From Candidatus Levybacteria bacterium RIFCSPLOWO2_12_FULL_41_12 (GTDB taxonomy: Bacteria > Patescibacteriota > Microgenomatia > Levybacterales > UBA12049): DNA of 64,000 nt. The stretch spans positions 87,280-151,279 of the forward strand of contig MFPL01000006.1 of NCBI GenBank assembly GCA_001784155.1, in the 5' to 3' direction. Within the stretch, counting starts at the first letter, position 1. Every line of letters starts with the position of its first letter. This document shows, one piece after another, positions 40,920-52,596 of this stretch. Made by a program: the position numbers and the translations under genes. Below the pieces are notes generated by a model that worked only from the letters and a program-made list of their open reading frames with translations, was not told where the DNA came from and did not search any database.

Positions 40920-40929
40920 CTAACAGGGC

Positions 40930-41001
40930 TCCGCAGTAGCTCAACGGTAGAGCAGATCCCTGTTAAGGATAAGGTTCTAGGTTCGAATCCTAGCTGCGGA
41001 G
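40930..41001 (+). tRNA. tRNA-Asn (anticodon GUU)
   Basis: Hand-folded cloverleaf:
- acceptor: TCCGCAG paired with CTGCGGA
- U8 and A9 present
- D-stem: GCTC paired with GAGC
- anticodon stem: GATCC paired with GGATA (one G·A mismatch)
- anticodon loop: CU-GUU-AA
- T-arm: CTAGG-TTCGAAT-CCTAG
- discriminator: G
The 3' CCA is not encoded. Confidence 0.85.
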
Positions 41002-42477
41002 CCCTGTTGGATTATCAGTGTAATTGAGGATAGCGTCAAAGGGTTTTAGCAGGCTATATTTGACTAATCGTCCATCTAATACAGAGTTCTGAAGTATTAA
41101 CTTCAAAAGTTGCCTCTTTTCTTCTATTTCCGAACTTACGAACAAATTATAAGCGTTTTGAAGAAGCCGTAGAATGTATTCTGAGGTCAAATAGTAGTCG
41201 TCTTCGGCTTTCTGAAGATTAAATAGCTTAGTATCAATTTCGTCTATCTTTAGCTTAAAGGCTTTATACATTTTGTCATACCCATCGGCAGTAATACGCC
41301 CATCAAGTCTGTCTAAATACATTTCCTCAATCCTTTTTGCGTATTTTTCTTTTTCCTCGCTTAATTTCTTAACCTGTTCTTCTCTAAATTCGCTTTTACC
41401 CAGATGAACATTTCTAAGCGTTTCAATGGTTTCGTCTACCACACCCTCTGGCAACTGCAATTTTTTGAATAACTTCCCGAACTGTTCGGTTATATCTTCC
41501 TCACGAAGCCACTCTGCGTTGTGCTTGCCTTTATATTGAGTGCAGTGATAGTAAACATACTTATCTTTAGCCTTTTCAGGCGTTATCATACACCCGCAAT
41601 CGGCACAGCGAATAAGACCCCTATACATATAAGGCAACCCAGCGAATTTGAAGTGTTTTTTGTTGTATCCAGCCTTAATCTGTTGAACCTTGTCAAAAAG
41701 CTCTTTTGAAATAATCGTTTGGTATTTGTGTGAATAAAGTTTTCCCTTACTTAACATTTCCCCATAATAGAAAGGTTGCTTAAGGATAAAATCTACATAG
41801 CTGTTTGAAAAATTAAGATTGTAATCAGCTTTTAACTTTTCTCTTATGAGACGCATTGAAAATGCACCGGATGAATACCATTCATACATTTTTAGGACTA
41901 TTTTAGATTCAAATTCATCAGGCACTATATCTTTCTTTTCATTTTCTAAAGTAATGTTTTTATAGCCGTAAGGAGCTTTTCCAATCCATTGACCGCTTCT
42001 TAGCATTTGCTCTTGAGCCCTTTTAACATTGTCGCTTATTGCATCCGAGAAGTATTTCGCAAGCCCTAAACTAATACCAAACTGAAACTTTTCAACTGCT
42101 GATATTTGGCTGTTTATAACCTGCCCGTCTGATGGAAAATGTAGTTCTACCTCGTCTCTCAATGCCTTCTCGTATAGCGTTGCAACCCTTACATCAAAAA
42201 CATTCCTTGATAGTCTATCTACCTTATCAAAACAGACAACCATCTTTTCTTTTTGTCCAATTACGAAGTCTAAAATTTCGTCAAAGTCTTCTCTTTGGTC
42301 TTTATAAGCACTTTCATCAAAACTAAATTTCTTAATAATTTCGTATCCTTTTTTCTGGCAATATCCTTCAAGACGAGCTATCTGAGCAGGAAGAGAATTG
42401 CCTGCATCTTTTTGTTCTTCTGTTGATACACGAGCTATAATTATCGCTTCCATAATTAAAACTTTATTCTTTCCCAT
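40990..42477 (-). CDS. large serine recombinase (integrase)
   Basis: 495 aa. Resolvase catalytic domain 'IIARVSTEEQ…VDRLSRN', recombinase domain and Zn-ribbon 'CADCGCMITPEK…YYHC'. The stop overlaps the tRNA-Asn 3' end. The true start may be the internal Met at 42453. Confidence 0.85.
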   Translation of the reverse strand: MGKNKVLIMEAIIIARVSTEEQKDAGNSLPAQIARLEGYCQKKGYEIIKKFSFDESAYKDQREDFDEILDFVIGQKEKMVVCFDKVDRLSRNVFDVRVATLYEKALRDEVELHFPSDGQVINSQISAVEKFQFGISLGLAKYFSDAISDNVKRAQEQMLRSGQWIGKAPYGYKNITLENEKKDIVPDEFESKIVLKMYEWYSSGAFSMRLIREKLKADYNLNFSNSYVDFILKQPFYYGEMLSKGKLYSHKYQTIISKELFDKVQQIKAGYNKKHFKFAGLPYMYRGLIRCADCGCMITPEKAKDKYVYYHCTQYKGKHNAEWLREEDITEQFGKLFKKLQLPEGVVDETIETLRNVHLGKSEFREEQVKKLSEEKEKYAKRIEEMYLDRLDGRITADGYDKMYKAFKLKIDEIDTKLFNLQKAEDDYYLTSEYILRLLQNAYNLFVSSEIEEKRQLLKLILQNSVLDGRLVKYSLLKPFDAILNYTDNPTGLRS

Positions 42478-44726
42478 CCCTTTGCAGTCGTATTTTTGTT
42501 ATATTTGGCACCTTCATGAACGAACATTCCAGCCGATTTTGAGATTACTATTCCGCCAATAAGTTTCCTTGCCTTGTTTTTCCGAATGTAATCGTGTAAA
42601 ACATTTGCTTTCACTACAGTTTCATCACTTTCTGCGTGGATGCCTGATTTTGTATCGTAAATGCCTATTTTATCTTTGAAGAAAACTATGTAATCCGGAT
42701 AAAAAGAATGTTGTAATCCATCTTGAGGATGGATGTAGGGTATAGCAAAATATACTTCTTTATTCGTTCCATTTTTATACCAATAAAGAACAGATTTACT
42801 CTTGCTTATCATTTCTTCAAACTTCTGTTCTGGAATGCTACGAGAAGTTCTAAGATAACATGGACTCAGAGAATAATTCTTAACTTCAACCTTTTCGTGT
42901 AATTCATTGAAGTATTCTACCTCTGGAACATCCCAAAGCAATTCTTTCTTAACTTGCTTAGCTTCTTTATCTTTTCTATCTAATTCTTTGAATCTTTCTT
43001 TTGCCGACTCAATAATTTCCTTGAAGATTTTTTGATTGGATTCGGAACAAATTACAATTCTCTGAATTTCAATTCTACTAACATCTCCATAACCTAAGTA
43101 GTTATCAAACCAATCATATAAGCCTTGTTGAATCTTTGTGTGCGAACGAACAGGAGCATAAGGCAAGGAGCACGCTTTAGCAAAAAACTCAAACTTAAAT
43201 TTCAAATCGTCTTCCGACATAGTAAAGTTAACAATCTTTCCAATAACATTTTCTACATCGTCAATTCCTTGAAGGATAACATCGGAAATTATGGGTGTTG
43301 TTAATTCTTTTGGTAATAATTCAAGTTCCTTGTCAGCCTTCTTTTTGGCGACAGCTGGCATGTCTTTTTCCTTAATCCCAAAATACTTATTTGCTTCCTC
43401 TATTAGAAGTTTTCTAAAAGACAAGGTAAGGTCACCATAATCTATTCTTCTAAGGTATGTTGATGGAAGTTTTACTTCTTTATATTTTCCGATTCTATGA
43501 GCGGGTTGTATACGAAAGAAGGATTTGCTCTCAGAATCTTTTGCAATCTGAATCTTCGGTAGATTACTGTATACAAAGCCTTGATTTAATTCATCACTGT
43601 CGTAATGTTTCGCCTCAGGCATCCTCAAAATCCTTCCTACAGTTTGTATTTCAAAAGTCACGCTTTTTATGTCACGAAACATAATTAAGATTTGAGCACG
43701 AGGACAATCCCACCCTAAAGCTATTGCCTGCTTGAAAATAAGAACACGAACACCGTCATCGTTATTTGATATAGTCTCAATGTTTTCTTTCCTGTCAGAT
43801 AACCAAATTCCTAAAAGTCCATTTCCTACAGTTATATTATGTTTTGCATGCAAATATCTCATCACAAATATAATTTTTCTCACATCAAGAGCACTCATAG
43901 TTTCGCTTTCATTAGGCAGTTGAATAAGAATTAAGGGATTTATCTTTAATCTATTTTTATAAAGTTCAATAAGTTCTTTTTGTTTAGCGAGTGCAGATTC
44001 TAAAATAACCTCATCTGCAACGGAATTGAAGTCTTTATATTTTCCTATTTCCTCATTTATAACAACATCCTTTTTTATCATGCCCTGTTCTATTACATCC
44101 TCAAACTTAACAGAAATGTAACCAGCGTCTTCATTAGCAATATCCTCTGGTTTTGGCTCAAGTTTTGGAGTTGCAGAAACCTCAATTGTGAGCTTAGGAG
44201 CTATGACATCTTGCACAAGATTCTGTGATTTTTCTGACCAATAATGATAATGGCTCTCATCAACAATTAGTATTATTTGTAAGCCCTTTTCTTTTGTGTT
44301 GTTTATGAAAGTCCGGAGATTTCTATCATTTTCGTTTTCTCGCATATATAGATTGGTATACTCACCAGTTCTTCTATCTTGTTTTATAAGGCTATGCCAG
44401 TTAACAAAAGCAATTTCATTTTCTTTCAGTTCGTTATTTTGAATATCATCAAGATAGGAAAATGTATATCTGCTGGGATTAAGGTAATCTTCTAATTTTC
44501 CTCTGCTCTGTTTATGTAAATCGTTTCCGCTAATCCATAAGAAAGCATACTTAGAAGGTAATTGTTCATCTGCAAGATTTCTAAGGTAATCTGCTACAAC
44601 AATAGTTTTTCCAGAACCTGTAGGAGCCTTGAATACACATACTCTTTGACCATCTTTTGCAAGAAGAATCCTGCTGGCTTTCAGCAATTTATCTACTGCT
44701 GTTTCTTGGTAACGCTTAAGTTTCAT
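42456..44726 (-). CDS. res: Type III restriction enzyme Res subunit (SF2 helicase + PD-(D/E)xK nuclease)
   Basis: 756 aa. 'APTGSGKT', 'DESHYHYW', and a C-terminal 'PDYIVFFKDK…YDTKSG' nuclease motif. Immediately downstream of mod. Confidence 0.75.
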   Translation of the reverse strand: MKLKRYQETAVDKLLKASRILLAKDGQRVCVFKAPTGSGKTIVVADYLRNLADEQLPSKYAFLWISGNDLHKQSRGKLEDYLNPSRYTFSYLDDIQNNELKENEIAFVNWHSLIKQDRRTGEYTNLYMRENENDRNLRTFINNTKEKGLQIILIVDESHYHYWSEKSQNLVQDVIAPKLTIEVSATPKLEPKPEDIANEDAGYISVKFEDVIEQGMIKKDVVINEEIGKYKDFNSVADEVILESALAKQKELIELYKNRLKINPLILIQLPNESETMSALDVRKIIFVMRYLHAKHNITVGNGLLGIWLSDRKENIETISNNDDGVRVLIFKQAIALGWDCPRAQILIMFRDIKSVTFEIQTVGRILRMPEAKHYDSDELNQGFVYSNLPKIQIAKDSESKSFFRIQPAHRIGKYKEVKLPSTYLRRIDYGDLTLSFRKLLIEEANKYFGIKEKDMPAVAKKKADKELELLPKELTTPIISDVILQGIDDVENVIGKIVNFTMSEDDLKFKFEFFAKACSLPYAPVRSHTKIQQGLYDWFDNYLGYGDVSRIEIQRIVICSESNQKIFKEIIESAKERFKELDRKDKEAKQVKKELLWDVPEVEYFNELHEKVEVKNYSLSPCYLRTSRSIPEQKFEEMISKSKSVLYWYKNGTNKEVYFAIPYIHPQDGLQHSFYPDYIVFFKDKIGIYDTKSGIHAESDETVVKANVLHDYIRKNKARKLIGGIVISKSAGMFVHEGAKYNKNTTAKGWERIKF

Positions 44727-46399
44727 TTGAATAATTTCCTATATACCTCCAATATGCTTTCAGGAATAGGACATAATTCGTGCTTTAATTCTAAATCTTC
44801 AAAGTCCTCATTAAAAGTATCATTTGTTAGAGAAAAAACATAAATACTAGCGGGAAGGTTTTGCTCTTTTAGCTTCTTCTTTAGTTCATCTAAATCATCT
44901 AAGTTAAATAAAATTCCAGTTGTATGCTTAGCATCTTTATAAATCTTAAAACCAGTCTTATCAAGAACTTTTTCAAAGGTGTTTTCTCTAATACATATCA
45001 TTTCTGTTGAGCGTTTAACTAATTCTTTCCTTGTATCGTCAGACACTTTAGACTTTGATACGAAAGAAGTTTTGAAATATCTTAAGTTAATTGGAATCCC
45101 AGTTAAATCTTCTAGACCTGAAACGCTTTTCGTAATAGCTTTAATCCTTTTGTAGGTAACATTCTCTGCGATATTGTTCTCATTGTTTGTGCAGAGGATA
45201 AATTGCCTCTTAAGACCATCCTTTTTATTGAGGATTGCTACTGCATGACCAGTCGTTCCAGAACCTGCAAAGAAATCAAGAATAATTGGTTGCCTCCTTT
45301 TTTTTGTTGCATAAGAGATAAAATCTATCATTGTATAAATTGATTTTGGAAATGGAAAATCAGTATCAGGCAACAATTTTTTTAAGAACATTGTTCCATG
45401 CGGTCCTGCATTATATCTTGAATCAAACCAATTACTGTAAACTGGTTTATAAACCTTGCTTCTTTTTTTTATCACTTTCATTGATAAGTTAGGAAGCGAA
45501 GCCTTGATTTCCTGTTTTGAAATTAAATCAATCATTGTCTCCCTTCCGTATCGCCATCTTCTTTCTCCGCCATTTCCATCAAGGGGATAAACTCTCTTGT
45601 ATCCCTCTGGAGTATCTTCCGTAGGATATTTTTCATCTTTTTTCAATTCTTCCCCGACACCTTTAATTTGTCCTGTTTTTTTATCTACTAGAATAGCAAA
45701 AAACATTCGTGGTCTTCCTATTCTATAGTAATCATTACCAGCACCTGCCTTGAGTAGGCTCCATTCTTCCGTGACTTCTTCAATGTAATCCCCTAAGAAT
45801 AGGTTTTTCCCTTTAGGAACTGAGACAATTGCATATTCATGTGTTGCTGAAATGTTAAGACCTCCTGAACCTTGAGGATGATGATTAACAACAACCACCT
45901 CATGCGTATACGAGGGCAGTATTTCTTCAAGTAACAATTTCAGATTTGCAAATTCATTATCGTCAATAGCACAGATAAGAATCCCATCCTCTGTTAATAG
46001 ATTTCTAGCAAGTGTAAGCCTGTGATGCATCATGTTAATCCATTTGCTATGTCTATAGTTATCATTACTATCTACATAATGATTGTTATATTTCCAATCT
46101 TTAGCTCCAGTATTGTAAGGAGGGTCAATATATATAACATCTATCTTTCCAGCATGGGTATAATTTAAAACCGAAAGTGAATGATAATTATCTCCTTCAA
46201 TTATTAAATTAGTAGGTAAGCCTTCATCTTTTTGTATAGCTTTATCTTTTGATTCTTCAAGGACTGGTAACTCTTTTTTACATTGCTCAACGACATCCTC
46301 AGGCTTATCTTCCCAAACTAAACCATATTTTTTACGCTTTTTAACTTCCTTAACAAGGGCAACCAATTCTTCCTTTGTCATGTCATCTATTTTTTTCAT
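44723..46399 (-). CDS. mod: Type III R-M Mod subunit (beta-class N6-adenine DNA methyltransferase)
   Basis: 558 aa. Motif IV 'IYIDPPYN' precedes motif I 'FAGSGTTG'. Contains two A8 homopolymer tracts. Confidence 0.8.
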   Translation of the reverse strand: MKKIDDMTKEELVALVKEVKKRKKYGLVWEDKPEDVVEQCKKELPVLEESKDKAIQKDEGLPTNLIIEGDNYHSLSVLNYTHAGKIDVIYIDPPYNTGAKDWKYNNHYVDSNDNYRHSKWINMMHHRLTLARNLLTEDGILICAIDDNEFANLKLLLEEILPSYTHEVVVVNHHPQGSGGLNISATHEYAIVSVPKGKNLFLGDYIEEVTEEWSLLKAGAGNDYYRIGRPRMFFAILVDKKTGQIKGVGEELKKDEKYPTEDTPEGYKRVYPLDGNGGERRWRYGRETMIDLISKQEIKASLPNLSMKVIKKRSKVYKPVYSNWFDSRYNAGPHGTMFLKKLLPDTDFPFPKSIYTMIDFISYATKKRRQPIILDFFAGSGTTGHAVAILNKKDGLKRQFILCTNNENNIAENVTYKRIKAITKSVSGLEDLTGIPINLRYFKTSFVSKSKVSDDTRKELVKRSTEMICIRENTFEKVLDKTGFKIYKDAKHTTGILFNLDDLDELKKKLKEQNLPASIYVFSLTNDTFNEDFEDLELKHELCPIPESILEVYRKLFK

Positions 46400-46400
46400 A

Positions 46401-46568
46401 TTATTTTTGCTTTAAAAATTTTTCCAAATCTTCCCTTCTTATCCTATATTGCTTTCCCGCCTTTAAGGCAATAAGTTTCTTTGCTCGTATCCATCTATAG
46501 ACGGTAAGGTAGGCGACATTAAGCATTTGAGAAACTTCTTCAATAGAATAAAACTGTTCTTCTTTCAT
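46401..46568 (-). CDS. excisionase-family HTH DNA-binding protein (Xis-like)
   Basis: A 55-aa ORF not in the track. MKEEQFYSIEEVSQMLNVAYLTVYRWIRAKKLIALKAGKQYRIRREDLEKFLKQK has the MerR/Xis-type HTH pattern (…s.eEva..L.vs..TvyrW.r.g.l.a.k.G…ri…dle.fl). Confidence 0.55.
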   Translation of the reverse strand: MKEEQFYSIEEVSQMLNVAYLTVYRWIRAKKLIALKAGKQYRIRREDLEKFLKQK

Positions 46569-47173
46569 ATTTTTAACCAATTTCTAATATCGCTCCACAT
46601 ATTCTCTTTTTCATTTTCCCAGTTGAGACAAATATAATCAAAGTGATAAAGCATTCTTCTGAAGGAAATGCTTTCTTCCGCTTTTGAATGACCCTCAAAA
46701 TTGTCAAATGCAAACATTGCCTTAACTTTTGGAAATAGTCTTTTAATATCGCCGGATATTACATTTGCGGAAATTGCATCGTGACTTGGGAAATTTGATA
46801 GCTTACTCGTGGTTCTTCTTGTAGCTTTTTTAAGCTCCATAATAATCGCTGGAACAATAATGTTTCCTCTTACCATTACGCCCGTTGTTTTTACAAAATC
46901 CCCAATTAGTTTTTCTCTTGGAATTGTCTGCTCATAGATGATTACATCTATTTCTTGTGCACCGCCATATAGCTTCCATTCTCCATCTTTTGTTTTGAAA
47001 AAGGAGAAATCACGAAGAATATAATTGTCCGAAGCATCGCTCTCATAGCCTCCTATTACTTTTATGGTTTTATTATCTATGCTTTTTAATTTTTCCCGTA
47101 AGAAACGGACGACTTCTCTGTTAAATTCCTGCTCCGTAGCAAAGATAGTATTTCGCATATCCTTATTTATCAT
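46565..47173 (-). CDS. hypothetical protein with putative PD-(D/E)xK nuclease motif
   Basis: 202 aa. 'EIDVIIYEQ' followed about 35 aa later by 'VPAIIMELKK', giving a D…E.K pattern. Inference only. Confidence 0.4.
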   Translation of the reverse strand: MINKDMRNTIFATEQEFNREVVRFLREKLKSIDNKTIKVIGGYESDASDNYILRDFSFFKTKDGEWKLYGGAQEIDVIIYEQTIPREKLIGDFVKTTGVMVRGNIIVPAIIMELKKATRRTTSKLSNFPSHDAISANVISGDIKRLFPKVKAMFAFDNFEGHSKAEESISFRRMLYHFDYICLNWENEKENMWSDIRNWLKI

Positions 47174-48308
47174 TATTTATCATTTCAGCTTCAAAGTCAA
47201 CTAGGCTTAATGGTTCAAACTGTTCTATGCTCTGCCTAATAGGTTTGAATACATCAAGAGAATTTTTAGGATAATTATAGCTGTTCATTTGAGAATTAAA
47301 ATCATACCAACTGTTTCTAGGATGTTTTTTTAGTAGTTCTCGTAATTCTCTTGGATTATTTTCTTCCAATGCTTTACGAAAGCCTAAGGCTGTAAATACA
47401 TCTTTTATTTTTGTTTTGGTATTGTCTATTTCAAACTGAGCAATAAAATCTTTGCTTGATTTTGGGTCAAAATAAAGAGGTTTTGGGTATCCTTTTTCAA
47501 TATCTTCAAGATAGCTTAGAAGTATTTTTTGAGCAATTTCCTTTTTAAATATATTTTGAAAAGTTGGTTCTACCTTATATCCATTATCACTGAGCACTTT
47601 CCTCAATTTTTGCCTTGTGTTGATTCTTAACTCCATTCTCAAAACTTCAAAAGGCTTGTGTTTTCTTGCTTCTTGAATGTCGCTAAAAAGATTCATTTGA
47701 AGGGAATTATCTTTTTCTATTGCCCTTTTTTCGCTAATTTTTGCTTGCTCCAAATCTTTTATTTTGTCATAGAATGTTAATTCCCATGTATTGGCATGCC
47801 ATTTAATTGAATGTCCTTCATTTCTAAAATCTGATTGGTTGAAATCAAGCCTCTTCGTTATGTTGGCTTTGCTTAGTTCTTTTAAAACTGTGAAGGCAAT
47901 CAATCCATTTGTTAGTTTGATATTTTTAGAATAATGAACTGACGAAACTGGTGCTTTTATGAAAAGTTCCCAAAACACTTTGACTCCCATTTCGCTTAGC
48001 TTTGTTTGTAATAACTTAGCAACTGCTTTAAAATTCTCATCATCTAATTCTTCAAAATTATTTCCATAAAGCAACTTAGGTAAGGATAACTCTATTGAAA
48101 GGGTTGGTTCAAAGCGACCAGAGGAATTAAACCTTTTTTGTAAAGTTAATTTTGGTTTGTATATTCCGCTCATCAACTCTGATTTAGTCGGGTTTTGGAC
48201 AAGTGAAAAAAATCCTCTCGCAGAGTTCATAGTGTCTTTTTGAAATCGCCCAATATCTGTTACAAAAAACATATTATTTTCCAAAACTATTTTCACTGTA
48301 TCTATCAT
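47163..48308 (-). CDS. hypothetical protein (possible replication-initiator-like cargo protein)
   Basis: 381 aa. No confident motif. The Rep-like idea rests only on its size and its mobile-element context. Confidence 0.4.
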   Translation of the reverse strand: MIDTVKIVLENNMFFVTDIGRFQKDTMNSARGFFSLVQNPTKSELMSGIYKPKLTLQKRFNSSGRFEPTLSIELSLPKLLYGNNFEELDDENFKAVAKLLQTKLSEMGVKVFWELFIKAPVSSVHYSKNIKLTNGLIAFTVLKELSKANITKRLDFNQSDFRNEGHSIKWHANTWELTFYDKIKDLEQAKISEKRAIEKDNSLQMNLFSDIQEARKHKPFEVLRMELRINTRQKLRKVLSDNGYKVEPTFQNIFKKEIAQKILLSYLEDIEKGYPKPLYFDPKSSKDFIAQFEIDNTKTKIKDVFTALGFRKALEENNPRELRELLKKHPRNSWYDFNSQMNSYNYPKNSLDVFKPIRQSIEQFEPLSLVDFEAEMINNDK

Positions 48309-48564
48309 TTTTCATTACATCTTCAAACTCTTTGATGACCTCCTTTTCTATTGATTTTGCGAAAACTTTGTTTATCGGATGGAAAATATTTATATTTCTT
48401 TCTCCTACTTTCTTTGTCGGGTATACTAACCGGTAACCGCCTTCTGGTCGTGTCAGAATGCCAATAGAACCTAAATATAGGCTCTCGTTTAATACGAAGC
48501 TCGCAAAGGCAACTAAGCCATTCTGTGGCTTAATAGGAATAATCTGAATTTCAGTTATTTTCAT
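48274..48564 (-). CDS. SpoVG-family nucleic-acid-binding protein
   Basis: 96 aa. 'ITEIQIIPIKPQNGLVAFASFVLNESLYLGSIGILTRPEGGYRLVYPTKK…INIFHPINK' parallels SpoVG (VTDVRL…G.L.A.ASIT.D..FV.HDIRVI.G..GLFVAMPS.R…..DIAHPI). Confidence 0.6.
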   Translation of the reverse strand: MKITEIQIIPIKPQNGLVAFASFVLNESLYLGSIGILTRPEGGYRLVYPTKKVGERNINIFHPINKVFAKSIEKEVIKEFEDVMKNDRYSENSFGK

Positions 48565-48722
48565 TATTTTCTTTTCTTAGTTCTCTGGTCTATTTCAACC
48601 AAAAGACCCATAAACTTTACAAATCTATCTTTATATTCCCTTACTTCTTCGTCAGATAATTTCTTTCCATACATCTGCTCTAAGAAGTTTTTAAGTTTTT
48701 GCTTGCTGTCTGCTTTTTCCAT
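48564..48722 (-). CDS. possible 52-aa small protein
   Basis: Short ORF not in the track (MEKADSKQKLKNFLEQMYGKKLSDEEVREYKDRFVKFMGLLVEIDQRTKKRK). Fits the minus-strand operon. Speculative. Confidence 0.3.
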   Translation of the reverse strand: MEKADSKQKLKNFLEQMYGKKLSDEEVREYKDRFVKFMGLLVEIDQRTKKRK

Positions 48723-48826
48723 TAGGATAAGCGTGCTACCTCAATAAGCGTTGAGGTCAAGATTTAGGACATTTAGGTTATGAGGGTAAATTTGAAACCT
48801 CTATAGAGATTTCAAACCTAAAGGGG

Positions 48827-50233
48827 TTAAGGTTTTGGCAGTATTTTAATTCTGTATGCACCCACGGCTGGCTTATCTTCTGCGTTGTCGTCTTGTGTAG
48901 ATACTATAATTATTTTTTTCTTTGCTTCTTCGGGCATTCTATCTTCAATCTGTTTTATAGTTGAGCGAACATATCCAACATCTTTATTGCCTTTCATCTC
49001 ATTTATAGTAGCCCAACCGCCTTTTTTATCAGTAAGTGCCTTAAATATGTGTCTTCTATCTTCACTATTAAAGTCAATTTTCCCTAAAGTTCCAAAAACG
49101 AAACTATTACCTTCCCATCTAAAATCATCTTGCCAAGAAATTTTACTTTTATTTGTTTTTTCAAGAGCTTTGGTTGTTATTTGCTGATTTTCATTTTTTT
49201 GAATGAGCACCGGCTTATCTACGAGTTTATTTCCCCTAGACTTAATAGCTTTTACTTTATCAAGTAGATCATAATAGCTATTTATATTTAGCGTTATCTC
49301 TGCATCAAGAGACATTTCTCTATGTAGATAATCTATTATTACGCCTATTTTCTTTAGATAATCTAAAACTTTAATATAGCCACCTGTTAAGTCATCAATG
49401 TCTGAAGTATCATAGCCCTCAACATCGTGAAATGATGAAACGAAACTAAAGTTTATTTTATCTGATTGGACTATTTGCAATTGTTCTTCAATTTGCGTTA
49501 GCACAAGATAGATTTCGTTGAGATTACTTTCCGTAAGATTTTCTATACTTGTCCTGCGTTGAATTAAATAATTTGAATGCCATCTATGAAACTCAGGAAT
49601 ATCCAGCAAAAAATAATGAGTTGGCTGTTGATTAGGGGGTAGAAGTCTATTGTTTAATGGGTGGACTTTAAGAGCTTTCTCGTCTTGGAGTTGGAGAAGA
49701 ATGTTGCGTATTTCCTCTCTCGGTAATCGGTCTAACCCGTTTGTAGCATTTAAGTAAAGTGTTGCCGTAAAAAAGCCTTTGTGAAGAGTTTTACTAGCCT
49801 CTACTACCGCTTTAACGATAAGGTCTAGTTTTTCCTCATAGGTCATTACGGCGTTGCTGTTGGGCTTCGTTTGGCTACCTGCGGGCTTTTTGCCTGTAAA
49901 CTCTTGGTATTCTAGTTCTTGTTGGATTTTCAAGAAGTAGCTGTCAAAGGCTGGTAGAAGCTTTATATGCCAGCAACCATCGTCTGCGTGGTCGTAGGGG
50001 TCGGGGTCAAGTTCACCAAGAGTTGAATTTGCTCTCTTTGATGCTTTTAAGACTTTCAAAACCCGTTCGTCTTTTTCTAACTTGGCAAACAGTTGTGATA
50101 ATTCAACATCTCTGAAATTGCCATTCAGGTCGTTCATGGGGTCTATTTTCAAAGGTTGACCAGAAGGGGCTATAGTCCTTGCGTCGTCAATTGCGTCTAG
50201 GAGAAAGTAGAGTTTTTCTTTACCGTTCATCAT
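48827..50233 (-). CDS. hypothetical acidic protein (468 aa), first gene of the island cargo block
   Basis: Long ORF with an amino-acid composition typical of this genome. No recognisable domain. Confidence 0.5.
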   Translation of the reverse strand: MMNGKEKLYFLLDAIDDARTIAPSGQPLKIDPMNDLNGNFRDVELSQLFAKLEKDERVLKVLKASKRANSTLGELDPDPYDHADDGCWHIKLLPAFDSYFLKIQQELEYQEFTGKKPAGSQTKPNSNAVMTYEEKLDLIVKAVVEASKTLHKGFFTATLYLNATNGLDRLPREEIRNILLQLQDEKALKVHPLNNRLLPPNQQPTHYFLLDIPEFHRWHSNYLIQRRTSIENLTESNLNEIYLVLTQIEEQLQIVQSDKINFSFVSSFHDVEGYDTSDIDDLTGGYIKVLDYLKKIGVIIDYLHREMSLDAEITLNINSYYDLLDKVKAIKSRGNKLVDKPVLIQKNENQQITTKALEKTNKSKISWQDDFRWEGNSFVFGTLGKIDFNSEDRRHIFKALTDKKGGWATINEMKGNKDVGYVRSTIKQIEDRMPEEAKKKIIIVSTQDDNAEDKPAVGAYRIKILPKP

Positions 50234-50286
50234 AATTCATTACATTTTCAGTAGCAGTATTGTAATATTTTGCTAATATATACTCA

Positions 50287-50460
50287 ATGGTTGATATTAA
50301 AAGAGCGAGGGAATTATTAGGCAAAAGGGGCGAGCGGATGACTGATGAGGAAATTATGAGGGTTGAGGAGCAAATGAGAATCTGGGTAAATATAATAATT
50401 GATAGAGTTTTAGAAGATAAAAGAAATGGTGTGATGAAACATAAAAAACCGAGGGTGTAA
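50287..50460 (+). CDS. possible 57-aa small protein
   Basis: ORF not in the track (MVDIKRARELLGKRGERMTDEEIMRVEEQMRIW…). Preferred over the overlapping junk-like minus-strand ORF 50220..50501. Low confidence. Confidence 0.25.
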   Translation: MVDIKRARELLGKRGERMTDEEIMRVEEQMRIWVNIIIDRVLEDKRNGVMKHKKPRV

Positions 50461-50469
50461 CACCCTCGG
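50449..50469 (+). terminator. perfect 9-bp hairpin CCGAGGGTG-taa-CACCCTCGG
   Basis: Seen directly in the sequence. Not followed by a U-run, so at best a weak terminator or a structural element. Confidence 0.35.
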
Positions 50470-50549
50470 TTGACTTCTCGCAGACCCCTCTCTAACCACA
50501 AGCTATTTCCCCGACTTATTGTATATTGTTTTTGTGCTATAATTTAGAT

Positions 50550-51152
50550 ATGAAAAGTGCTACCCCCAAGAAAAAATTAAAAGAGCTAATAGTCTACATC
50601 GCAACTAAATGTAGCAATGACGAAAACTACGGAGAAACTAAACTGAATAAAATTCTTTATTATTCTGACTTTCTTTACTTTTTTAAGACATACAAGCCAA
50701 TCACTGGTCACGAGTATGTGCATCTTCCAAATGGACCAATTCCTAATGATATGAAAAAAATCTTAAAAGAAATGGAAGGAAAGGATATAAGCATTGCAAT
50801 CTCAAGGTCGGGTCCATATACACAACATAGAATAATTGCTTTAAGAGAAGCTGATTTAAGTTTATTTAGTGCGGATATGATTTCCCATGTTGATTCAATT
50901 ATTGATGAGGTCTCCAACAAATATCCTCTGACTGCCAGTCAATTAAGCGAATTGAGCCATAGGAATATGGGTTGGATTGTAACCTCAAACGGAGAAACCA
51001 TTCCGTATCAAACAGTATTTGTAAAAGATAAGAAACACCAAGTTGCAACAGAACGAGAAGTAGGAAAAGCTAAGGAAATAGCAAAGGAGTATGCAGGCAG
51101 GTATGGATACCCCAAAGATACCCAAAACATTAGAGGAGTCTCCTCGTTATAA
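50550..51152 (+). CDS. Panacea-domain (DUF4065, SocA-like) antitoxin
   Basis: 'KLKELIVYIATKCSNDENYGETKLNKILYYSDFLYF…TGHEYVHLPNGPIP' matches the Panacea/DUF4065 pattern. Start chosen at the ATG 6 nt after 'gcTATAAT' (50538-50543). The track start at 50526 is a TTG. Confidence 0.6.
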   Translation: MKSATPKKKLKELIVYIATKCSNDENYGETKLNKILYYSDFLYFFKTYKPITGHEYVHLPNGPIPNDMKKILKEMEGKDISIAISRSGPYTQHRIIALREADLSLFSADMISHVDSIIDEVSNKYPLTASQLSELSHRNMGWIVTSNGETIPYQTVFVKDKKHQVATEREVGKAKEIAKEYAGRYGYPKDTQNIRGVSSL

Positions 51153-51387
51153 ACAGAACATAAAGAAAATCAACAAGAACACAAAAGCTCTTGATGTTCA
51201 TCTTGTTGGTGCAACTTTTACCATTGCTTGTAAAGCAGACGAATATCCTTTGCTTGATGCTTTTGGCACGAGGTCAATAAAAATTGATGGTCAAGGGAAA
51301 ATCCCACCTATAACAATATACTTTAAGGAATTTGAGGAAAAGATTGTTTTACTTGATGTAGAGGAAACACCTGAAATAATTTCTTAA
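51103..51387 (+). CDS. small protein partnered with Panacea antitoxin (candidate toxin, RelE/ParE-like C-terminus?)
   Basis: About 94 aa, overlapping the antitoxin 3' end in a different frame. The C-terminal 'PITIYFKEFEEKIVLLDVEE' is reminiscent of RelE/ParE terminal strands. Inference. Confidence 0.35.
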   Translation: MDTPKIPKTLEESPRYKQNIKKINKNTKALDVHLVGATFTIACKADEYPLLDAFGTRSIKIDGQGKIPPITIYFKEFEEKIVLLDVEETPEIIS

Positions 51388-51440
51388 ACTTAAGACTTAA
51401 GTGGTTATTGGAAGATTGAGGTTGGAATATAGAATTTTTA

Positions 51441-51497
51441 AGTCTTCTAAGCTATAATCAAACTCAATCCCTTTGTTAATGAATAAGTCCTTTAGGG
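51441..51497 (+). repeat. about 57-nt intergenic repeat, copy A (contains TATAAT)
   Basis: 'agtcttctaagcTATAATcaaactcaatccctttgttaatgaataagtccttta' aligns at roughly 85% with copy B at 53093-53152. Confidence 0.8.
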
Positions 51498-51538
51498 GGA
51501 GCCCTGTTAAACTGGACCAACGGTGACGTTTTACGTCA

Positions 51539-51558
51539 TTCGAGTCCTAGTCGCGGAG
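51539..51558 (+). repeat. degenerate direct repeat of tRNA-Asn 3' end (putative attR of the island)
   Basis: 'TTCGAGTCCTAGTCGCGGAG' versus the tRNA 'TTCGAATCCTAGCTGCGGAG': T-loop, T-stem 3' strand and acceptor 3' strand. A further 'GGAGCCCTGTT' at 51498-51508 matches the tRNA 3' end plus its flank. Confidence 0.6.
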
Positions 51559-51618
51559 CAATCTTTCGCTAAAACTACAGAATTGCATGCAGTTACGTAG
51601 TAAAATACGAAGTGTTGC

Positions 51619-51930
51619 ATGCATTACTGTTATATTCTGCTAAGTTCAAAATCCCACACATTTTATTTTGGTTCAACTAATAATTTAAAAATAAGATTAA
51701 CTCTTCATAATAATGGCGAGGTAAGGTCAACAAAGCCACACATTCCTTGGAAACTTGTTTGGTATGGAGGATTTCAGACAGAAAAGGAAGCTAGAGATTT
51801 TGAACTTTATCTAAAAACAGGGTCAGGAAAAGCATTTGCATACAAAAGATTAGTCAATGTAGCTTTGGAGAAAGATTTTTCGAGTGGCAGACGTAGTAGT
51901 CCGAAGTCAAAAAAGACGAAGGATACCTAG
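51619..51930 (+). CDS. GIY-YIG nuclease-family protein (paralogue of 40677..40919)
   Basis: 103 aa. 'YCYILLSSKSHTFYFGSTNNLKIRLTLHNNG…STKPHIPWKLVWYGGFQTEKEARDFELYLKTGSG' aligns position-by-position with the upstream paralogue. Confidence 0.75.
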   Translation: MHYCYILLSSKSHTFYFGSTNNLKIRLTLHNNGEVRSTKPHIPWKLVWYGGFQTEKEARDFELYLKTGSGKAFAYKRLVNVALEKDFSSGRRSSPKSKKTKDT

Positions 51931-51941
51931 TCACGGAGCAA
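51926..51941 (+). repeat. tRNA-3'-end-like motif 'CCTAGTCACGGAGCAA' (copy 2)
   Basis: Shares the CCTAG…CGGAGCAA core with 51539-51560 and 52538-52562. Overlaps the stop codon of the GIY-YIG gene. Confidence 0.5.
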
Positions 51942-52017
51942 GTTAACCATTGCCTTGAATATTTTTTTCTGGTTCACGCCTCTTTTTTATGCTAAAATCA
52001 GTCTTGTGGAAGAAGCA

Positions 52018-52476
52018 ATGCCTAGAGGTAAACTCACGGCTGTTAAAGAAAGTCTTGAAGATAATCTGCTTTGGAATGGGCCGCAAAGTGTTGGTACTGC
52101 CCGCGTACTCCACGTCGAACACCCGATGCATGACATGGTATTTATTGACTGTGGTGGCGATGATATTACTGCTCATGAGTTTGTATTTACTGCTCCGGGT
52201 AAAATAAAAAAAAATCAAATTGTCGAAGTTATTGTTAGGACAAAAAAACAACTAAGAAAACCGTTTACATTTCCTGATTGTCAGGTAGCTATTAGACCCT
52301 ATACACAAGAAACCTATGGGAAAATAACAGCTGAGGATAGGGCTACATTAAGACCTACGTTTGAATATGATTCTAACAGAAAAGATGCTTTTTTCTCGCG
52401 AGCTTTTTATCGAAGATTCTTCCCCGGAGGAAGAAGCACTCTTAAACCTTTTCCTGATGTATCAGGTTCTGAATGA
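52018..52476 (+). CDS. hypothetical protein
   Basis: Start taken at the internal ATG (MPRGKL…), preceded by 'gcTAAAAT'. No domain recognised. Confidence 0.45.
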   Translation: MPRGKLTAVKESLEDNLLWNGPQSVGTARVLHVEHPMHDMVFIDCGGDDITAHEFVFTAPGKIKKNQIVEVIVRTKKQLRKPFTFPDCQVAIRPYTQETYGKITAEDRATLRPTFEYDSNRKDAFFSRAFYRRFFPGGRSTLKPFPDVSGSE

Positions 52477-52537
52477 TTATTGTAATTACAAAAATTAATT
52501 GCCGATTATAGGACTCAAACGAACTATAGCGTTGAAG

Positions 52538-52562: not shown

Positions 52563-52596
52563 CTTAGCCTCAGAATAAAGTGATATAATCTAATTT

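What the first reader, a model, noticed from the sequence alone, without database searches (positions are those of the whole stretch)
46565..50233. Block of four to five uncharacterised co-oriented genes between Type III R-M and the Panacea TA: candidate novel defense or cargo module
Genes of 468, 52, 96 (SpoVG-like), 381 and 202 aa overlap each other's starts by 11 nt (202/381) and 35 nt (381/SpoVG-like), with the other neighbours abutting within 0-100 nt, which implies translational coupling. They sit directly upstream of mod-res inside the island. The 202-aa protein carries a plausible PD-(D/E)xK nuclease core (IDVIIYEQ … IMELKK). The 381-aa and 468-aa proteins have no motif I can recognise. 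Defense genes cluster, and this block is embedded between an R-M system and a TA pair on a mobile element. It is therefore the best candidate in the window for an undescribed anti-phage or anti-MGE system. Alternatively it could be a replication/maintenance module for the excised element.
Basis: inference. Interest (0 to 1): 0.65.

Follow-up and report, generated by a model that had tools for sequence, protein, structure and literature searches.

The report
Backbone of a tRNA-integrating replicative element
The gene block is not a new defence system: four of its five genes are the replication and control core of a 10.5-kb mobile element that inserts at a tRNA gene in ultra-small (CPR) bacteria, and that element carries the neighbouring restriction-modification and toxin-antitoxin genes as cargo.

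Summary
The five ORFs and their overlaps are real. They do not form one cassette. 468-52-SpoVG-381, plus a missed 59-aa excisionase-family HTH and the large serine recombinase, is the backbone of an integrative element.

- **Extent:** window ~41009-51508, bounded by an 11-bp direct repeat of the tRNA-Asn 3' end.
- **Rep:** the 381-aa protein is a very divergent relative of filamentous-phage gene II protein (G2P/Phage_CRI), a rolling-circle initiator. Support comes from fold matches, weak Pfam hits in relatives and collinear motifs.
- **Conservation:** 80 related loci (Patescibacteria/CPR, Dependentiae, Omnitrophota) keep the order [multi-winged-helix protein]-[52-aa protein]-SpoVG-Rep-HTH-[cargo]-recombinase-tRNA.
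- **Cargo:** the slot between HTH and recombinase holds mostly restriction-modification genes.
- **Circular form:** two metagenomic contigs are circular and carry the predicted attP junction.
- **202-aa gene:** a rare, independently moving cargo gene with a conserved E...D...ExK pattern (PD-(D/E)xK-like; fold untested).
- **Neighbours:** the Type III R-M and the Panacea pair are cargo of the same element.

Verdict: a new family of a known kind of element, closest in logic to actinomycete pSAM2-type rep-xis-int elements. It is not a defence system. I found no published description. Moderate interest.

The parts
40929..41004 (+). tRNA-Asn (GTT), the integration target; its 3' end overlaps the recombinase stop codon
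   Evidence: ARAGORN and Rfam tRNA at 68.6 bits. In 39 of 61 related loci an opposite-strand tRNA abuts the recombinase end.
40998..41008 (+). Direct repeat GGAGCCCTGTT, copy 1 (tRNA 3' end / crossover region, tRNA-side junction)
   Evidence: Exact 11-mer found at 40998 and 51498 on the + strand, with 0.02 matches expected by chance. Its position matches the core of attP in circular contigs L101 and L023.
40990..42477 (-). Large serine recombinase (integrase), 495 aa. Its last ~60 nt hold the conserved P arm of attP (TTGACG...GATAATCCAAC).
   Evidence: Pfam Resolvase + Recombinase + Zn_ribbon_recom. Present co-oriented downstream of rep in 66 of 80 loci. DNA-level conservation of its 3' end across all branches.
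42456..46399 (-). Type III restriction-modification cargo (res 42456-44726, mod 44723-46399) in the HTH-to-recombinase cargo slot
   Evidence: Pfam ResIII and N6_N4_Mtase; PADLOC REase_III and MTase_III. The same slot holds other R-M types in relatives.
46401..46580 (-). 59-aa excisionase-family HTH (candidate recombination directionality factor or regulator); a backbone gene
   Evidence: PF12728 HTH_17 at 7.6e-16. TIGR01764 'excise' at 59.5 bits against a cutoff of 28.8. Found in 36 of 80 loci by BLASTP; in most of them it overlaps the rep 3' end by 16 nt.
46565..47173 (-). 202-aa rare protein with a PD-(D/E)xK-like pattern (E14, D76, E113-x-K115); a lineage-specific insert between rep and the HTH (cargo)
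   Evidence: Only 12 cluster representatives among 1.84 billion. Conservation in alignment A4. Best PDB profile match is BbvCI R2, E = 0.27, aligning ExK on E177-C-K. Absent from 80 related loci. Homologue P0124 sits next to a Type ISP R-M with no rep.
47163..48308 (-). 381-aa Rep: divergent G2P/Phage_CRI-like rolling-circle initiator; invariant residues include H125, Y180-D-K, E221, R224, E226 and R228
   Evidence: 1439 homologues, none annotated. AF2 model pLDDT 84.8. Foldseek against BFVD gives probability 1.0, including Inoviridae G2P. PF05144 is hit by 1 of 30 and 3 of 57 relatives. hhalign is collinear with 6 inovirus gpII sequences, P = 0.017.
48274..48564 (-). 96-aa SpoVG-like protein whose 3' end overlaps the rep start by 35 nt
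   Evidence: PF04026 at 5.1e-11. Found in 47 of 80 loci by BLASTP; in nearly all CPR-branch loci it lies directly upstream of rep and overlaps its start by about 30-35 nt. Not detected in that position in the Dependentiae branch.
48564..48722 (-). 52-aa protein with the motif FxxLLxEIDxR followed by a basic tail; the most widely conserved partner of rep
   Evidence: jackhmmer finds it upstream of rep in 48 of 79 loci, including Dependentiae. The motif is visible by eye in further loci.
48723..48826 (-). Structured intergenic region: 26-nt palindrome, CCTAAA repeats, and TTGACCTCAAC-N6-TTGAGG. Candidate operator and/or replication origin.
   Evidence: Sequence. ssDNA fold z = -3.97, 0 of 200 shuffles as stable. 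Subgroup-specific motifs co-vary with the type of the 468-aa C-terminal domain.
48827..50233 (-). 468-aa modular protein built from winged-helix-like units (N 1-125, M 130-335, C 365-468); first gene of the backbone operon; probable sequence-specific DNA-binding regulator or origin-binding protein
   Evidence: AF2 pLDDT 82.8. Best PDB matches are all tandem-wHTH proteins, none significant. Modules shuffle between loci but the position is fixed.
48312..48325 (-). 14-nt junction motif TGAAGATGTAATGA, 3 nt before the rep ATG
   Evidence: Only two matches in the window, both at gene starts. Found at the same two places in the CPR-branch loci; 49 loci have at least one upstream match.
50237..50250 (-). 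Second copy of the junction motif (TGAAAATGTAATGA), 3 nt before the ATG of the 468-aa gene
   Evidence: first seen as repeat D3.
50526..51387 (+). Panacea-domain antitoxin (50526-51152) plus a 98-aa partner (51091-51387): cargo of the element's left arm, on the strand opposite the backbone
   Evidence: PF13274. Lies inside the direct repeats. Left arms of relatives also carry opposite-strand cargo, including Panacea in L036.
51426..51508 (+). Conserved left-end arm of the element (P' arm of attP) ending in direct repeat copy 2 (51498-51508)
   Evidence: Repeat D1. Its reverse complement is collinear with, and nearly identical to, the P' half of attP in circular contig L101, and shares 23 nt exactly with L023 attP. 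The same end motif is present in L014, L016, L031, L033, L036 and L049.

Best explanation
The block is the backbone of a 10.5-kb integrative, excisable and probably self-replicating element (window ~41009-51508) inserted at the 3' end of tRNA-Asn in a Candidatus Levybacteria (CPR) genome.

Shown:
- The element is bounded by an 11-bp direct repeat of the tRNA end.
- Its two ends, joined, reproduce the attP junction seen in two circular metagenomic contigs of related elements.
- The gene order 468-like / 52-like / SpoVG / Rep / HTH / cargo / serine recombinase / tRNA recurs in 80 loci across three phyla.
- The cargo slot is variable and dominated by restriction-modification genes.

Inferred:
- The serine recombinase integrates and excises the element, and the excisionase-family HTH sets directionality.
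- The 381-aa protein, a distant homologue of filamentous-phage gpII, nicks an origin in the circle and primes rolling-circle replication, so that the excised form is maintained or amplified. The invariant Tyr180 in F-Y-D-K is the likely catalytic residue. The origin is probably in the structured 468/52 intergenic region or at the repeated 14-nt motif.
- The modular winged-helix 468-aa protein and the 52-aa protein bind DNA sites next to their genes to control the operon and/or the origin.
- The SpoVG-like protein, translationally coupled to Rep, acts as a nucleic-acid-binding accessory.

The 202-aa PD-(D/E)xK-like gene, the Type III R-M and the Panacea TA pair are cargo.
For: - **Ends and circular form.** Direct repeat GGAGCCCTGTT at 40998 and 51498, with 0.02 expected. 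Circular contig L023 has a 75-nt terminal repeat. Circular contig L101 has a 30-nt terminal repeat in a k=31 assembly. Both carry recombinase-end + TGGCTCCCC + CTAAAGGACTTATTC.... Alignment A6 shows that the left half of L101 attP matches the window's recombinase end and the right half matches the window's 51426-51508 arm. L102 is an integrated copy flanked by TGGCTCCCC.
- **Family-wide synteny.** Recombinase in 66 of 80 loci, SpoVG in 47, HTH in 36, 468 modules in about 27, 52-like in 48 of 79. A tRNA abuts the recombinase end in 39 of 61 loci. Several copies occur per genome.
- **Rep assignment.** Foldseek against BFVD gives E 1e-10 to 3e-7 at probability 1.0, including 'Replication-associated protein G2P [Inoviridae]'. 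PF05144 is the only Pfam family hit by more than one relative. A collinear hhalign to six gpII sequences shares MIDT/MIDM, SxPKLLxGNNF/SPAKVLQGHNVF and LRMEVRLN/VRFEARIK.
- **HTH.** TIGR01764 excisionase family.
- **Cargo.** Of 122 slot ORFs, Pfam hits include N6_Mtase 8, N6_N4_Mtase 7, Eco57I 7, HNH 6, EcoRI_methylase 5, ResIII 4, GmrSD_N 4 and others.
- **Composition.** G+C is lower across the element, 0.33-0.36 against about 0.40.
- **Precedent.** The rep-xis-int operon logic matches pSAM2-type elements (PMC2440964).
Against: - The window's own 381-aa protein has no significant Pfam hit.
- Foldseek finds nothing in the PDB.
- The hhalign P-value is only 0.017. That alignment places M13 Tyr197 opposite H171, nine residues before Y180, so the catalytic-Tyr assignment rests on motif resemblance.
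- No origin or nick site is demonstrated. The 14-nt motif regions do not fold.
- Circular contigs show that circles exist, not that they replicate.
- No relative was found in annotated phages, plasmids or IMG/VR, so no experimentally studied close homologue anchors the function.
- Roles for the SpoVG-like, 52-aa and 468-aa proteins are inference only.
Confidence: 0.78

Rival explanations
1. The G2P-like protein acts mainly as a relaxase rather than a vegetative replicase. After excision it nicks the element and pilots or releases a single strand for transfer to another cell. Transfer would use a helper's machinery or DNA uptake, as Rep_trans-type (MOB_T) relaxases do in integrative mobilizable elements of Firmicutes.
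For: Rep_trans-family proteins are documented relaxases of IMEs and ICEs (title and abstract of PMC7563843, listed). The element spans three phyla and occurs in several copies per genome, which implies efficient horizontal spread. No other transfer function is encoded.
Against: No conjugation, coupling-protein or T4SS gene occurs in any minimal element. No relative hits PF02486 Rep_trans; only PF05144 is hit. Conjugative systems are not known to me in CPR (own knowledge). Nicking for transfer and nicking for replication are not mutually exclusive.
Confidence: 0.12
2. The element is a degenerate or satellite filamentous-phage-like entity. Rep makes single-stranded circles that a helper inovirus packages, in the way RS1 depends on CTXphi. 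The SpoVG-like protein would play the ssDNA-binding role of gpV or RstB.
For: The only annotated structural relatives of Rep are inovirus G2P proteins. Inoviruses have been predicted in CPR (PMC6813254). A small nucleic-acid-binding-type gene is translationally coupled to rep.
Against: No pI/Zot-like ATPase or coat-like gene is found in the window element or in the complete circles L023 and L101. No relative is found in 2.9 million IMG/VR contigs or 50,697 phage records. The cargo is R-M, TA and metal resistance, which is typical of islands and plasmids.
Confidence: 0.06
3. One reading: the 468, 52, SpoVG, 381 and 202 genes together form a new anti-phage or anti-MGE system.
For: The location lies between R-M and TA genes. 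The 202-aa protein has a nuclease-like motif. No known family is assigned to three of the proteins.
Against: The five genes do not co-occur: the 202-aa gene is absent from all 80 loci. The other four track with integrase, excisionase and att sites independently of the cargo. Rep is homologous to replication initiators. PADLOC gives no hit.
Confidence: 0.03

Closest known systems
Actinomycete integrative and conjugative elements of the pSAM2 type (AICEs)
   Same: Both are small (~10 kb) elements integrated at the 3' end of a tRNA gene. Both have a rep-xis-int gene order in one operon and a rolling-circle type Rep used after excision (PMC2440964). Both have an excised circular form.
   Different: The integrase here is a large serine recombinase, not a tyrosine recombinase. 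Rep is G2P/Phage_CRI-like, not RepSA (pC194-type). There are no FtsK-like TraSA, Kor/Pra or Nudix Pif genes. The hosts are CPR, Dependentiae and Omnitrophota. The cargo is mainly R-M systems.
Filamentous-phage replication initiator gpII / G2P (Pfam PF05144 Phage_CRI), e.g. M13 gene II, CTXphi RstA
   Same: Predicted fold (Foldseek probability 1.0). The N-terminal MID motif, the S-x-x-K-x-L-x-G-x-N motif, the R-x-E-x-R motif and a Y-x-K following a beta-strand are collinear over the whole length. Length is similar, about 380-410 aa.
   Different: About 19% identity over the hhalign alignment. The window protein itself fails the Pfam model. No internal gene X start is evident. The protein is encoded in an integrative element with no virion genes.
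Integrative mobilizable elements with serine recombinases and Rep_trans (MOB_T) relaxases in Firmicutes
   Same: Small integrated elements that encode their own recombinase plus a nicking enzyme of the Rep_trans/G2P type and carry accessory cargo (listing: PMC7563843, PMC5704250).
   Different: No PF02486 match. No helper conjugative element is known. Integration is at tRNA 3' ends. The accessory genes (SpoVG-like, 52-aa, multi-wHTH protein) are different.
Mobile restriction-modification units linked to integrases (Furuta et al. 2010, PMC2853133)
   Same: R-M gene complexes travel next to an integrase as insertions at defined sites (abstract seen).
   Different: A specific, conserved replicative backbone with two cargo regions is defined here. 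That work is a general survey and does not describe this family.

Membership tests
G2P / Phage_CRI rolling-circle initiators (PF05144) | Significant match to the family profile | tested here: inconclusive
   The window protein has no hit. One of 30 relatives hits at 1.7e-5 and 3 of 57 at best 1.3e-6. PF05144 is the only family hit by more than one member. hhalign of the family against six gpII sequences gives P = 0.017 and is collinear over residues 1-379.
G2P / Phage_CRI rolling-circle initiators (PF05144) | Same fold as gpII | tested here: met
G2P / Phage_CRI rolling-circle initiators (PF05144) | Catalytic tyrosine that forms the 5'-phosphotyrosyl link (M13 Tyr197, from memory) | tested here: inconclusive
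   Y180 in F-Y-D-K is invariant in 57 sequences and resembles A-Y-L-K of M13. The low-confidence hhalign column pairs M13 Y197 with H171 instead.
G2P / Phage_CRI rolling-circle initiators (PF05144) | Site-specific nicking at a cognate origin | not testable with these tools
   Candidates only: the structured intergenic region 48723-48826 and the 14-nt motif containing GTAATGA.
Integrative element with site-specific recombination at a tRNA gene | Recombinase gene at one end, abutting a tRNA gene | tested here: met
   A tRNA abuts the recombinase end in 39 of 61 related loci.
Integrative element with site-specific recombination at a tRNA gene | Flanking direct repeats derived from the target | tested here: met
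   GGAGCCCTGTT at 40998 and 51498. TGGCTCCCC at both ends of L102.
Integrative element with site-specific recombination at a tRNA gene | Existence of the excised circle with attP | tested here: met
   This was shown for relatives, not for the window's own element. L023 and L101 have terminal repeats, and their junction equals the two window ends joined.
pSAM2-type AICE | rep-xis-int order and tRNA integration | tested here: met
   The family definition is taken from PMC2440964.
pSAM2-type AICE | Tyrosine integrase, RepSA-type Rep, FtsK-like TraSA transfer protein | tested here: not met
   The integrase is a Resolvase/Recombinase/Zn_ribbon serine recombinase. Rep is G2P-like. No FtsK/Tra domain is found in any ORF of the element or of circles L023 and L101.
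Inovirus prophage | pI/Zot morphogenesis ATPase and small coat proteins | tested here: not met
   No such Pfam or PHROG hit. The complete circles have no room for them. No relative in IMG/VR or in phage records.
Known anti-phage defence systems (PADLOC-DB) | Match of block proteins to a defence-system model | tested here: not met
   No hit for the 202-, 381-, 96-, 52- or 468-aa proteins. Only mod, res and the HTH (a generic mad1-like HTH_17) hit.
PD-(D/E)xK nuclease superfamily (202-aa protein) | Conserved acidic D and (D/E)xK on consecutive beta-strands, plus an N-terminal helix Glu | tested here: met
   E14 and D76 are invariant. E113, L114 and K115 are conserved in at least 90% of 17 sequences down to 24% identity.
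PD-(D/E)xK nuclease superfamily (202-aa protein) | Restriction-endonuclease-like fold or a significant profile match | tested here: inconclusive
   No Pfam hit. The best PDB profile hit is BbvCI subunit 2, E = 0.27, with ExK aligned on E177-C-K.

The most novel reading that the evidence does not exclude
These elements are a previously unrecognised, phylum-spanning class of rolling-circle 'integrative plasmids' of ultra-small bacteria (CPR, Dependentiae, Omnitrophota). They would be a main vehicle for exchanging restriction-modification systems in lineages that largely lack CRISPR. Their Rep, the translationally coupled SpoVG-like protein and the 52-aa protein would form a new type of replication/ssDNA-handling module, evolutionarily linked to filamentous phages. 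Spread might be as single-stranded DNA.
Probability: 0.3. Interest if true: 0.7.

Novelty: new variant of a known kind. Interest (0 to 1): 0.45.

Why it matters
- Mobile elements of CPR/Patescibacteria and Dependentiae are poorly characterised, and their defence repertoires are dominated by R-M systems.
- This family has more than 1400 Rep homologues, all annotated 'hypothetical'. It has defined att ends, an observed circular form and two cargo regions. It gives a concrete mechanism for how R-M, TA and metal-resistance genes move in these organisms.
- It gives four unannotated protein families a functional context: a G2P-like Rep, a modular multi-winged-helix protein, a 52-aa protein and an element-borne SpoVG.
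- The compact serine recombinase, excisionase-type HTH and short tRNA-end att sites could also interest genome-engineering work.
- For defence-island mining, it warns that conserved unknown genes next to R-M and TA genes can be the carrier's backbone rather than a new defence system.

Tried and rejected
- **Solved structures.** Foldseek of both models against the PDB gave nothing significant. Profile searches against PDB sequences also gave nothing significant.
- **Annotated collections.** tblastn of Rep against annotated plasmids and phages gave no match. A scan of IMG/VR for Rep relatives gave none.
- **First boundary estimate, rejected.** Comparing L010 with L011 and L012 put the left end 20 nt upstream of the 468-like ATG and excluded the Panacea pair. 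The circular contigs and the direct repeat later placed the end at 51508. L010 simply has a different left arm.
- **tRNA T-arm duplicate.** A search for a duplicated tRNA T-arm as the far att site found none. The repeat covers only the last 11 nt.
- **Outward-facing promoter, dropped.** I considered that the promoter-like site at the recombinase end (41039-41011) drives the 468 operon across attP. In the circles, attP is followed by opposite-strand cargo, and the hexamers are better read as recombinase-binding half-sites.
- **Family-wide DNA k-mer as nick site.** Only coding-sequence k-mers emerged.
- **Hairpins at the 14-nt motif.** None.
- **Empty-site search.** Contexts of the exact flanking proteins were all the same population, which carries the element.
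- **Literature.** Searches for a description of this family found none.

Full report
**1. Observation**

The minus strand carries ORFs of 202 aa (46565-47173), 381 aa (47163-48308), 96 aa (48274-48564), 52 aa (48564-48722) and 468 aa (48827-50233). The 96- and 52-aa ORFs share one base (TAATG). A 104-nt gap separates the 52- and 468-aa ORFs.

The 96-aa ORF passes Pfam SpoVG. The 202-, 381- and 468-aa proteins hit nothing in Pfam, PADLOC, PHROGs or NCBIfam.

It is an HTH_17 / TIGR01764 excisionase-family protein. The tight packing in fact continues through mod, res and a large serine recombinase (40990-42477). The recombinase stop codon lies inside the 3' end of tRNA-Asn (40929-41004). G+C is 0.33-0.36 across this stretch, against about 0.40 elsewhere.

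**2. Host and spread of the 381-aa family**

The 381-aa protein has 1439 homologues at E <= 1e-3. None has a Pfam domain or a name other than 'hypothetical'. The identical sequence comes from a Candidatus Levybacteria MAG.

A scan of one genome per species returned 80 loci. They come from Levy-, Woese-, Pace-, Roizman- and Peribacteria and other Patescibacteria, and from Dependentiae/Babeliales and Omnitrophota. Some genomes hold up to three copies. Several loci carry implausible bin labels such as 'uncultured Gammaproteobacteria'.

The family is strongly conserved. Invariant residues in 57 sequences include M1, D3, T4, S75, K78, H125, K128, N129, D155, Y180-D181-K182, E221, R224, E226 and R228.

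**3. What the 381-aa protein is**

An AlphaFold2 model built on the family alignment is confident (pLDDT 84.8, pTM 0.84). Foldseek finds nothing in the PDB. In the viral BFVD library it finds six matches at probability 1.0 (E 1e-10 to 8e-7). One of them is named 'Replication-associated protein G2P [Inoviridae]' (TM 0.51/0.54), and a weaker match is 'GST REP [Inoviridae]'.

At sequence level the window protein fails Pfam. One of 30 relatives and 3 of 57 relatives hit PF05144 (Phage_CRI, G2P N-terminal), best E 1.3e-6. It is the only family hit by more than one member.

A profile of the family aligned to six inovirus gene II proteins (M13, IKe, three Dulem viruses, Pseudomonas phage 42-1) gives a collinear local alignment. 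It covers residues 1-379 against 4-401, at 19% identity and P = 0.017. Shared landmarks are:
- MIDT / MIDM at the N-terminus;
- IELSLPKLLyGNNF / VEIKASPAKVLQGHNVF;
- VLRMEVRLN / LVRFEARIK.

The invariant F-Y180-D-K resembles M13 A-Y197-L-K. The low-confidence alignment offsets these by nine residues, so the catalytic-Tyr assignment is a motif-level inference.

I conclude, with about 0.8 confidence, that the protein is a very divergent member of the gpII-type rolling-circle initiator/nickase superfamily. No relative exists in 72,556 plasmid records, 50,697 phage records or IMG/VR.

**4. Gene neighbourhood across 80 loci**

BLASTP of the window's proteins against all ORFs of the loci gave these counts:

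| Window protein | Loci with a match (of 80) |
|---|---|
| Serine recombinase | 66 |
| SpoVG-like | 47 |
| HTH | 36 |
| 468-aa protein | 23 |
| 52-aa protein | 10 |
| mod | 4 |
| res | 2 |
| Panacea | 1 |
| 202-aa protein | 0 |

The order is fixed and co-oriented. It runs: a first gene of about 230-570 aa, a 50-70-aa gene, SpoVG, rep, HTH, a variable stretch, recombinase, then a tRNA on the opposite strand. Specifically:
- SpoVG overlaps the rep start by about 30-35 nt.
- The HTH overlaps the rep end by 16 nt in most loci.
- The variable stretch is 0-6.5 kb.

More sensitive searches raise the counts. The 52-aa family (motif FFxLLIEIDxR plus a basic tail) is found in 48 of 79 loci, including Dependentiae, and more are visible by eye. 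Modules of the 468-aa protein are found in about 27 loci, always in the first-gene position. In the Dependentiae-branch loci no SpoVG homologue was detected in the position upstream of rep.

An opposite-strand tRNA abuts or overlaps the recombinase ORF end in 39 of 61 loci. It is Asn in 24 of them; the rest are Arg, Asp, Glu and Lys (Gln also appears in the ARAGORN scan).

**5. The ends of the element and its circular form**

Two contigs are circular by the usual assembly signature. L023 is 9230 nt with a 75-nt terminal repeat. L101 is a 9579-nt Logan contig with a 30-nt terminal repeat, which equals k-1 for k=31.

Both carry the backbone and an R-M cargo: a Type IIG enzyme in L023, and Type III mod-res in L101, as in the window. 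Both also carry a few opposite-strand ORFs between the recombinase and the first gene.

In both, the recombinase 3' end (...TTGAYA-N17-GATAGTCAA..) runs into TGGCTCCCC (a mimic of a tRNA 3' end). This is followed by CTAAAGGACTTATTCaTCAAC...TTGAGTTTGATTATAGC.

In the window the first half of this junction is the recombinase end at about 41009-41060. The second half is, in reverse complement, the 77-nt repeat 'D1a' at 51426-51502 that the repeat finder had flagged. Alignment A6 shows the correspondence directly.

The 11-mer GGAGCCCTGTT occurs on the + strand only at 40998-41008 (the tRNA 3' end) and at 51498-51508, with 0.02 occurrences expected by chance. The element is therefore about 41009-51508, 10.5 kb.

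The same left-end sequence marks the far end in L014, L016, L031, L033, L036 and L049. L102 is an integrated copy flanked by TGGCTCCCC at both ends.

My first boundary estimate came from comparing L010 with L011. It was wrong and is superseded.

**6. Cargo**

The slot between the HTH and the recombinase contains 122 ORFs of at least 70 aa across the loci. Pfam hits are dominated by restriction-modification (PADLOC agrees):

| Pfam family | ORFs |
|---|---|
| N6_Mtase | 8 |
| N6_N4_Mtase | 7 |
| Eco57I | 7 |
| HNH | 6 |
| EcoRI_methylase | 5 |
| ResIII | 4 |
| Methylase_S | 4 |
| GmrSD_N | 4 |
| MmeI_Mtase | 4 |
| C5 DNA_methylase | 3 |

HSDR_N_2, RmuC and TaqI_C are also present.

The left arm lies between the far end and the first gene, on the opposite strand. 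It carries miscellaneous genes:
- the Panacea antitoxin pair in the window and a Panacea-domain gene in L036;
- an ArsP/ArsR/thioredoxin set in L016;
- a copper/heavy-metal efflux operon in L102;
- unknown genes in L023 and L101.

The window's Type III R-M and Panacea TA are therefore both cargo of the same element whose backbone is the block under study.

**7. The 202-aa protein**

It is rare. Only 12 close homologues were found in 5.8 billion clusters, and 12 representatives among 1.84 billion by exhaustive HMMER.

Alignment down to 24% identity keeps E14, D76, P108, H131 and R173 invariant, and E113-L114-K115 in at least 90% of sequences. This is a pattern typical of PD-(D/E)xK nucleases.

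The best profile match among PDB sequences is BbvCI subunit 2 (E = 0.27, not significant). It aligns the family's ExK on E177-C-K. From memory, this is that enzyme's catalytic motif. There are no Pfam hits.

The gene is absent from all 80 related loci. A 73%-identical homologue in another Levybacteria genome lies downstream of a Type ISP R-M enzyme with no rep or recombinase nearby.

In the window it sits where other elements have the rep/HTH overlap, and the local sequence ATGATAAATA is duplicated there (read from the sequence, not returned by a tool). I read it as an independently mobile cargo gene, plausibly a nuclease.

**8. The 468-aa protein and the intergenic region**

The AF2 model (pLDDT 82.8) shows four helix-strand units separated by disordered linkers. 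The C-terminal unit (365-468) is predicted at pLDDT of about 95.

The best PDB matches are all tandem winged-helix proteins: RPC62/RPC3, Stn1, CodY, MukE, ScpB, RepE, TFIIE and ORC. None is significant; the best E is 1.8e-3.

The protein is modular. The N (1-125), M (130-335) and C (365-468) modules occur in different combinations in homologues, always as the first backbone gene.

The 104-nt region downstream of it (48723-48826) contains a 26-nt near-perfect palindrome, CCTAAA repeats and TTGACCTCAAC-N6-TTGAGG. As single-stranded DNA it folds far better than shuffles (z = -3.97).

The motif set in this region co-varies with the C-domain type:
- window-type C domain: TTGACCTCAA + CCTAAA (six of six loci);
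- diverged C domain: a TAGCTAAC palindrome;
- no C domain: ACNACGACA.

The two features are physically adjacent, so linkage could explain this. It is suggestive, not proof, that the protein binds these sites as operator and/or origin.

**9. An unexplained repeat**

The 14-mer TGAA[AG]A[AT]GTAATGA occurs exactly twice in the 64-kb window. Both copies are on the minus strand, 3 nt before the ATG of rep (48312-48325) and of the 468-aa gene (50237-50250).

The CPR-branch loci show the motif at the same two places; 49 of the loci have at least one upstream match. Extra copies precede inserted ORFs. A degenerate third copy precedes the 202-aa start (repeat D3).

It contains TAATGA and does not fold. 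It could be a shared translation-initiation or coupling signal, a protein-binding site, or the Rep nick site. From memory, GT/AATGA resembles the T/AATAG nick sites of f1 and pT181. I could not discriminate between these.

**10. Mechanism**

*Shown:*
- an integrated element with target-derived direct repeats;
- existence of the circular attP form in relatives;
- a conserved backbone;
- variable cargo.

*Inferred:*
- the serine recombinase catalyses integration and excision, with the excisionase-family HTH as directionality factor;
- Rep nicks the circle and primes rolling-circle replication, so the excised form is maintained or amplified;
- the winged-helix and 52-aa proteins regulate the operon or mark the origin;
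- the SpoVG-like protein is a coupled nucleic-acid-binding accessory.

*Rivals:*
- Rep acts as a relaxase for single-strand transfer (0.12);
- the element is a satellite of filamentous phages (0.06);
- the block is a defence system (0.03).

**11. Comparison and novelty**

The logic (tRNA integration, a rep-xis-int operon, rolling-circle Rep) is that of pSAM2-type actinomycete elements (PMC2440964), and of serine-recombinase IMEs with Rep_trans-type nickases. Membership in either fails on defining features: the integrase class, the Rep family, and the absence of Tra or MOB genes.

It is not an inovirus, because it has no morphogenesis or coat genes. Four literature searches found no description of this family. 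The library is incomplete, so this does not prove absence.

I classify it as a new variant of a known kind of element.

**12. Verdict**

- The defence-system reading is rejected.
- Interest is moderate (0.45). The kind of element is ordinary. However, the family is widespread and unannotated, it is a likely major R-M carrier in ultra-small bacteria, and it now has testable att sites, a Rep and regulators.

Noticed in passing
window 51509-53160 (repeat D1b at 53078-53154): A second, 83%-identical copy of the element's left-end arm ends in a degenerate tRNA-end-like GCGGAGC. The stretch between the two copies holds only a GIY-YIG gene (51619-51930), a 173-aa ORF and a DUF5680 gene. It looks like the left-arm remnant of an older element of the same family, integrated in tandem at the same tRNA.
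   Followed up: partly
window 48312-48325 and 50237-50250 (minus strand); degenerate copy near 47172-47193: The 14-nt motif TGAA[AG]A[AT]GTAATGA lies 3 nt before the start codons of rep and of the 468-aa gene. It is conserved at the same places in the CPR-branch loci (49 loci have an upstream match), with extra copies before inserted ORFs. Its function is unknown: a translation-coupling signal, a binding site, or a nick site.
   Followed up: partly
window 40922-41010: The tRNA-Asn acceptor stem is extended by six further base pairs between the 5' leader (CAGGGC) and the 3' trailer (GCCCTG). The gene encodes CCT rather than CCA after the discriminator base. The 3' trailer is part of the element's direct repeat.
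   Followed up: no
window 41011-41060 and the recombinase 3' ends of L001-L080: The last ~60 nt of the recombinase gene are conserved at DNA level across all branches, whichever tRNA is targeted: TTGAYA-N17-GATARTCAAC-NN-TGG. The sequence scores as a sigma-70-like outward promoter (10 of 12 in the window). It is more likely the P arm of attP embedded in the recombinase's own coding sequence. The ORF reads on into the tRNA for a variable distance.
   Followed up: partly
L082 (MFPM01000014.1), equivalent to window 30677-42278: A contig from a sister assembly is 99.99% identical to the window up to position 42278, inside the recombinase gene. It then diverges for 705 nt to the contig end. This may be a strain variant with a different cargo, or an assembly break.
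   Followed up: no
L102 447-4744; L016 5442-7543: Left arms of related elements carry metal-resistance cargo. L102 has a P-type ATPase, HMA, cation-efflux and CsoR-like repressor set. L016 has an ArsP permease, ArsR and thioredoxin. The family therefore moves more than defence genes.
   Followed up: partly
record titles of L003, L004, L006, L010, L012, L013 and others: Many loci that carry this CPR-type element next to CPR-type tRNA-Asn are labelled 'uncultured Gammaproteobacteria', 'Pseudomonadales' or 'Chromatiales' in TPA MAG records. Other labels include Pedobacter, Dehalococcoidia and Alphaproteobacteria. These labels are probably binning or taxonomy errors rather than true hosts.
   Followed up: no
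window 50447-50471 (minus strand): A strong intrinsic-terminator-like hairpin (11 bp, 7 GC, T-run) on the minus strand lies between the left-arm cargo and the promoter-like site of the 468-aa gene (50287-50259). It overlaps the 3' end of a 57-aa + strand ORF (50287-50460) of unknown status. It would insulate the backbone operon from antisense read-through.
   Followed up: no
window 40677-40919 and 51619-51930; L004, L026, L044, L052, L062, L063, L067, L073, L079: Small GIY-YIG (UPF0213-like) genes recur next to these elements. In the window they lie on both sides: an 80-aa gene beside the tRNA and a 103-aa gene in the remnant. It was not determined whether they are chromosomal neighbours of the target tRNAs or hitch-hiking genes.
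   Followed up: no
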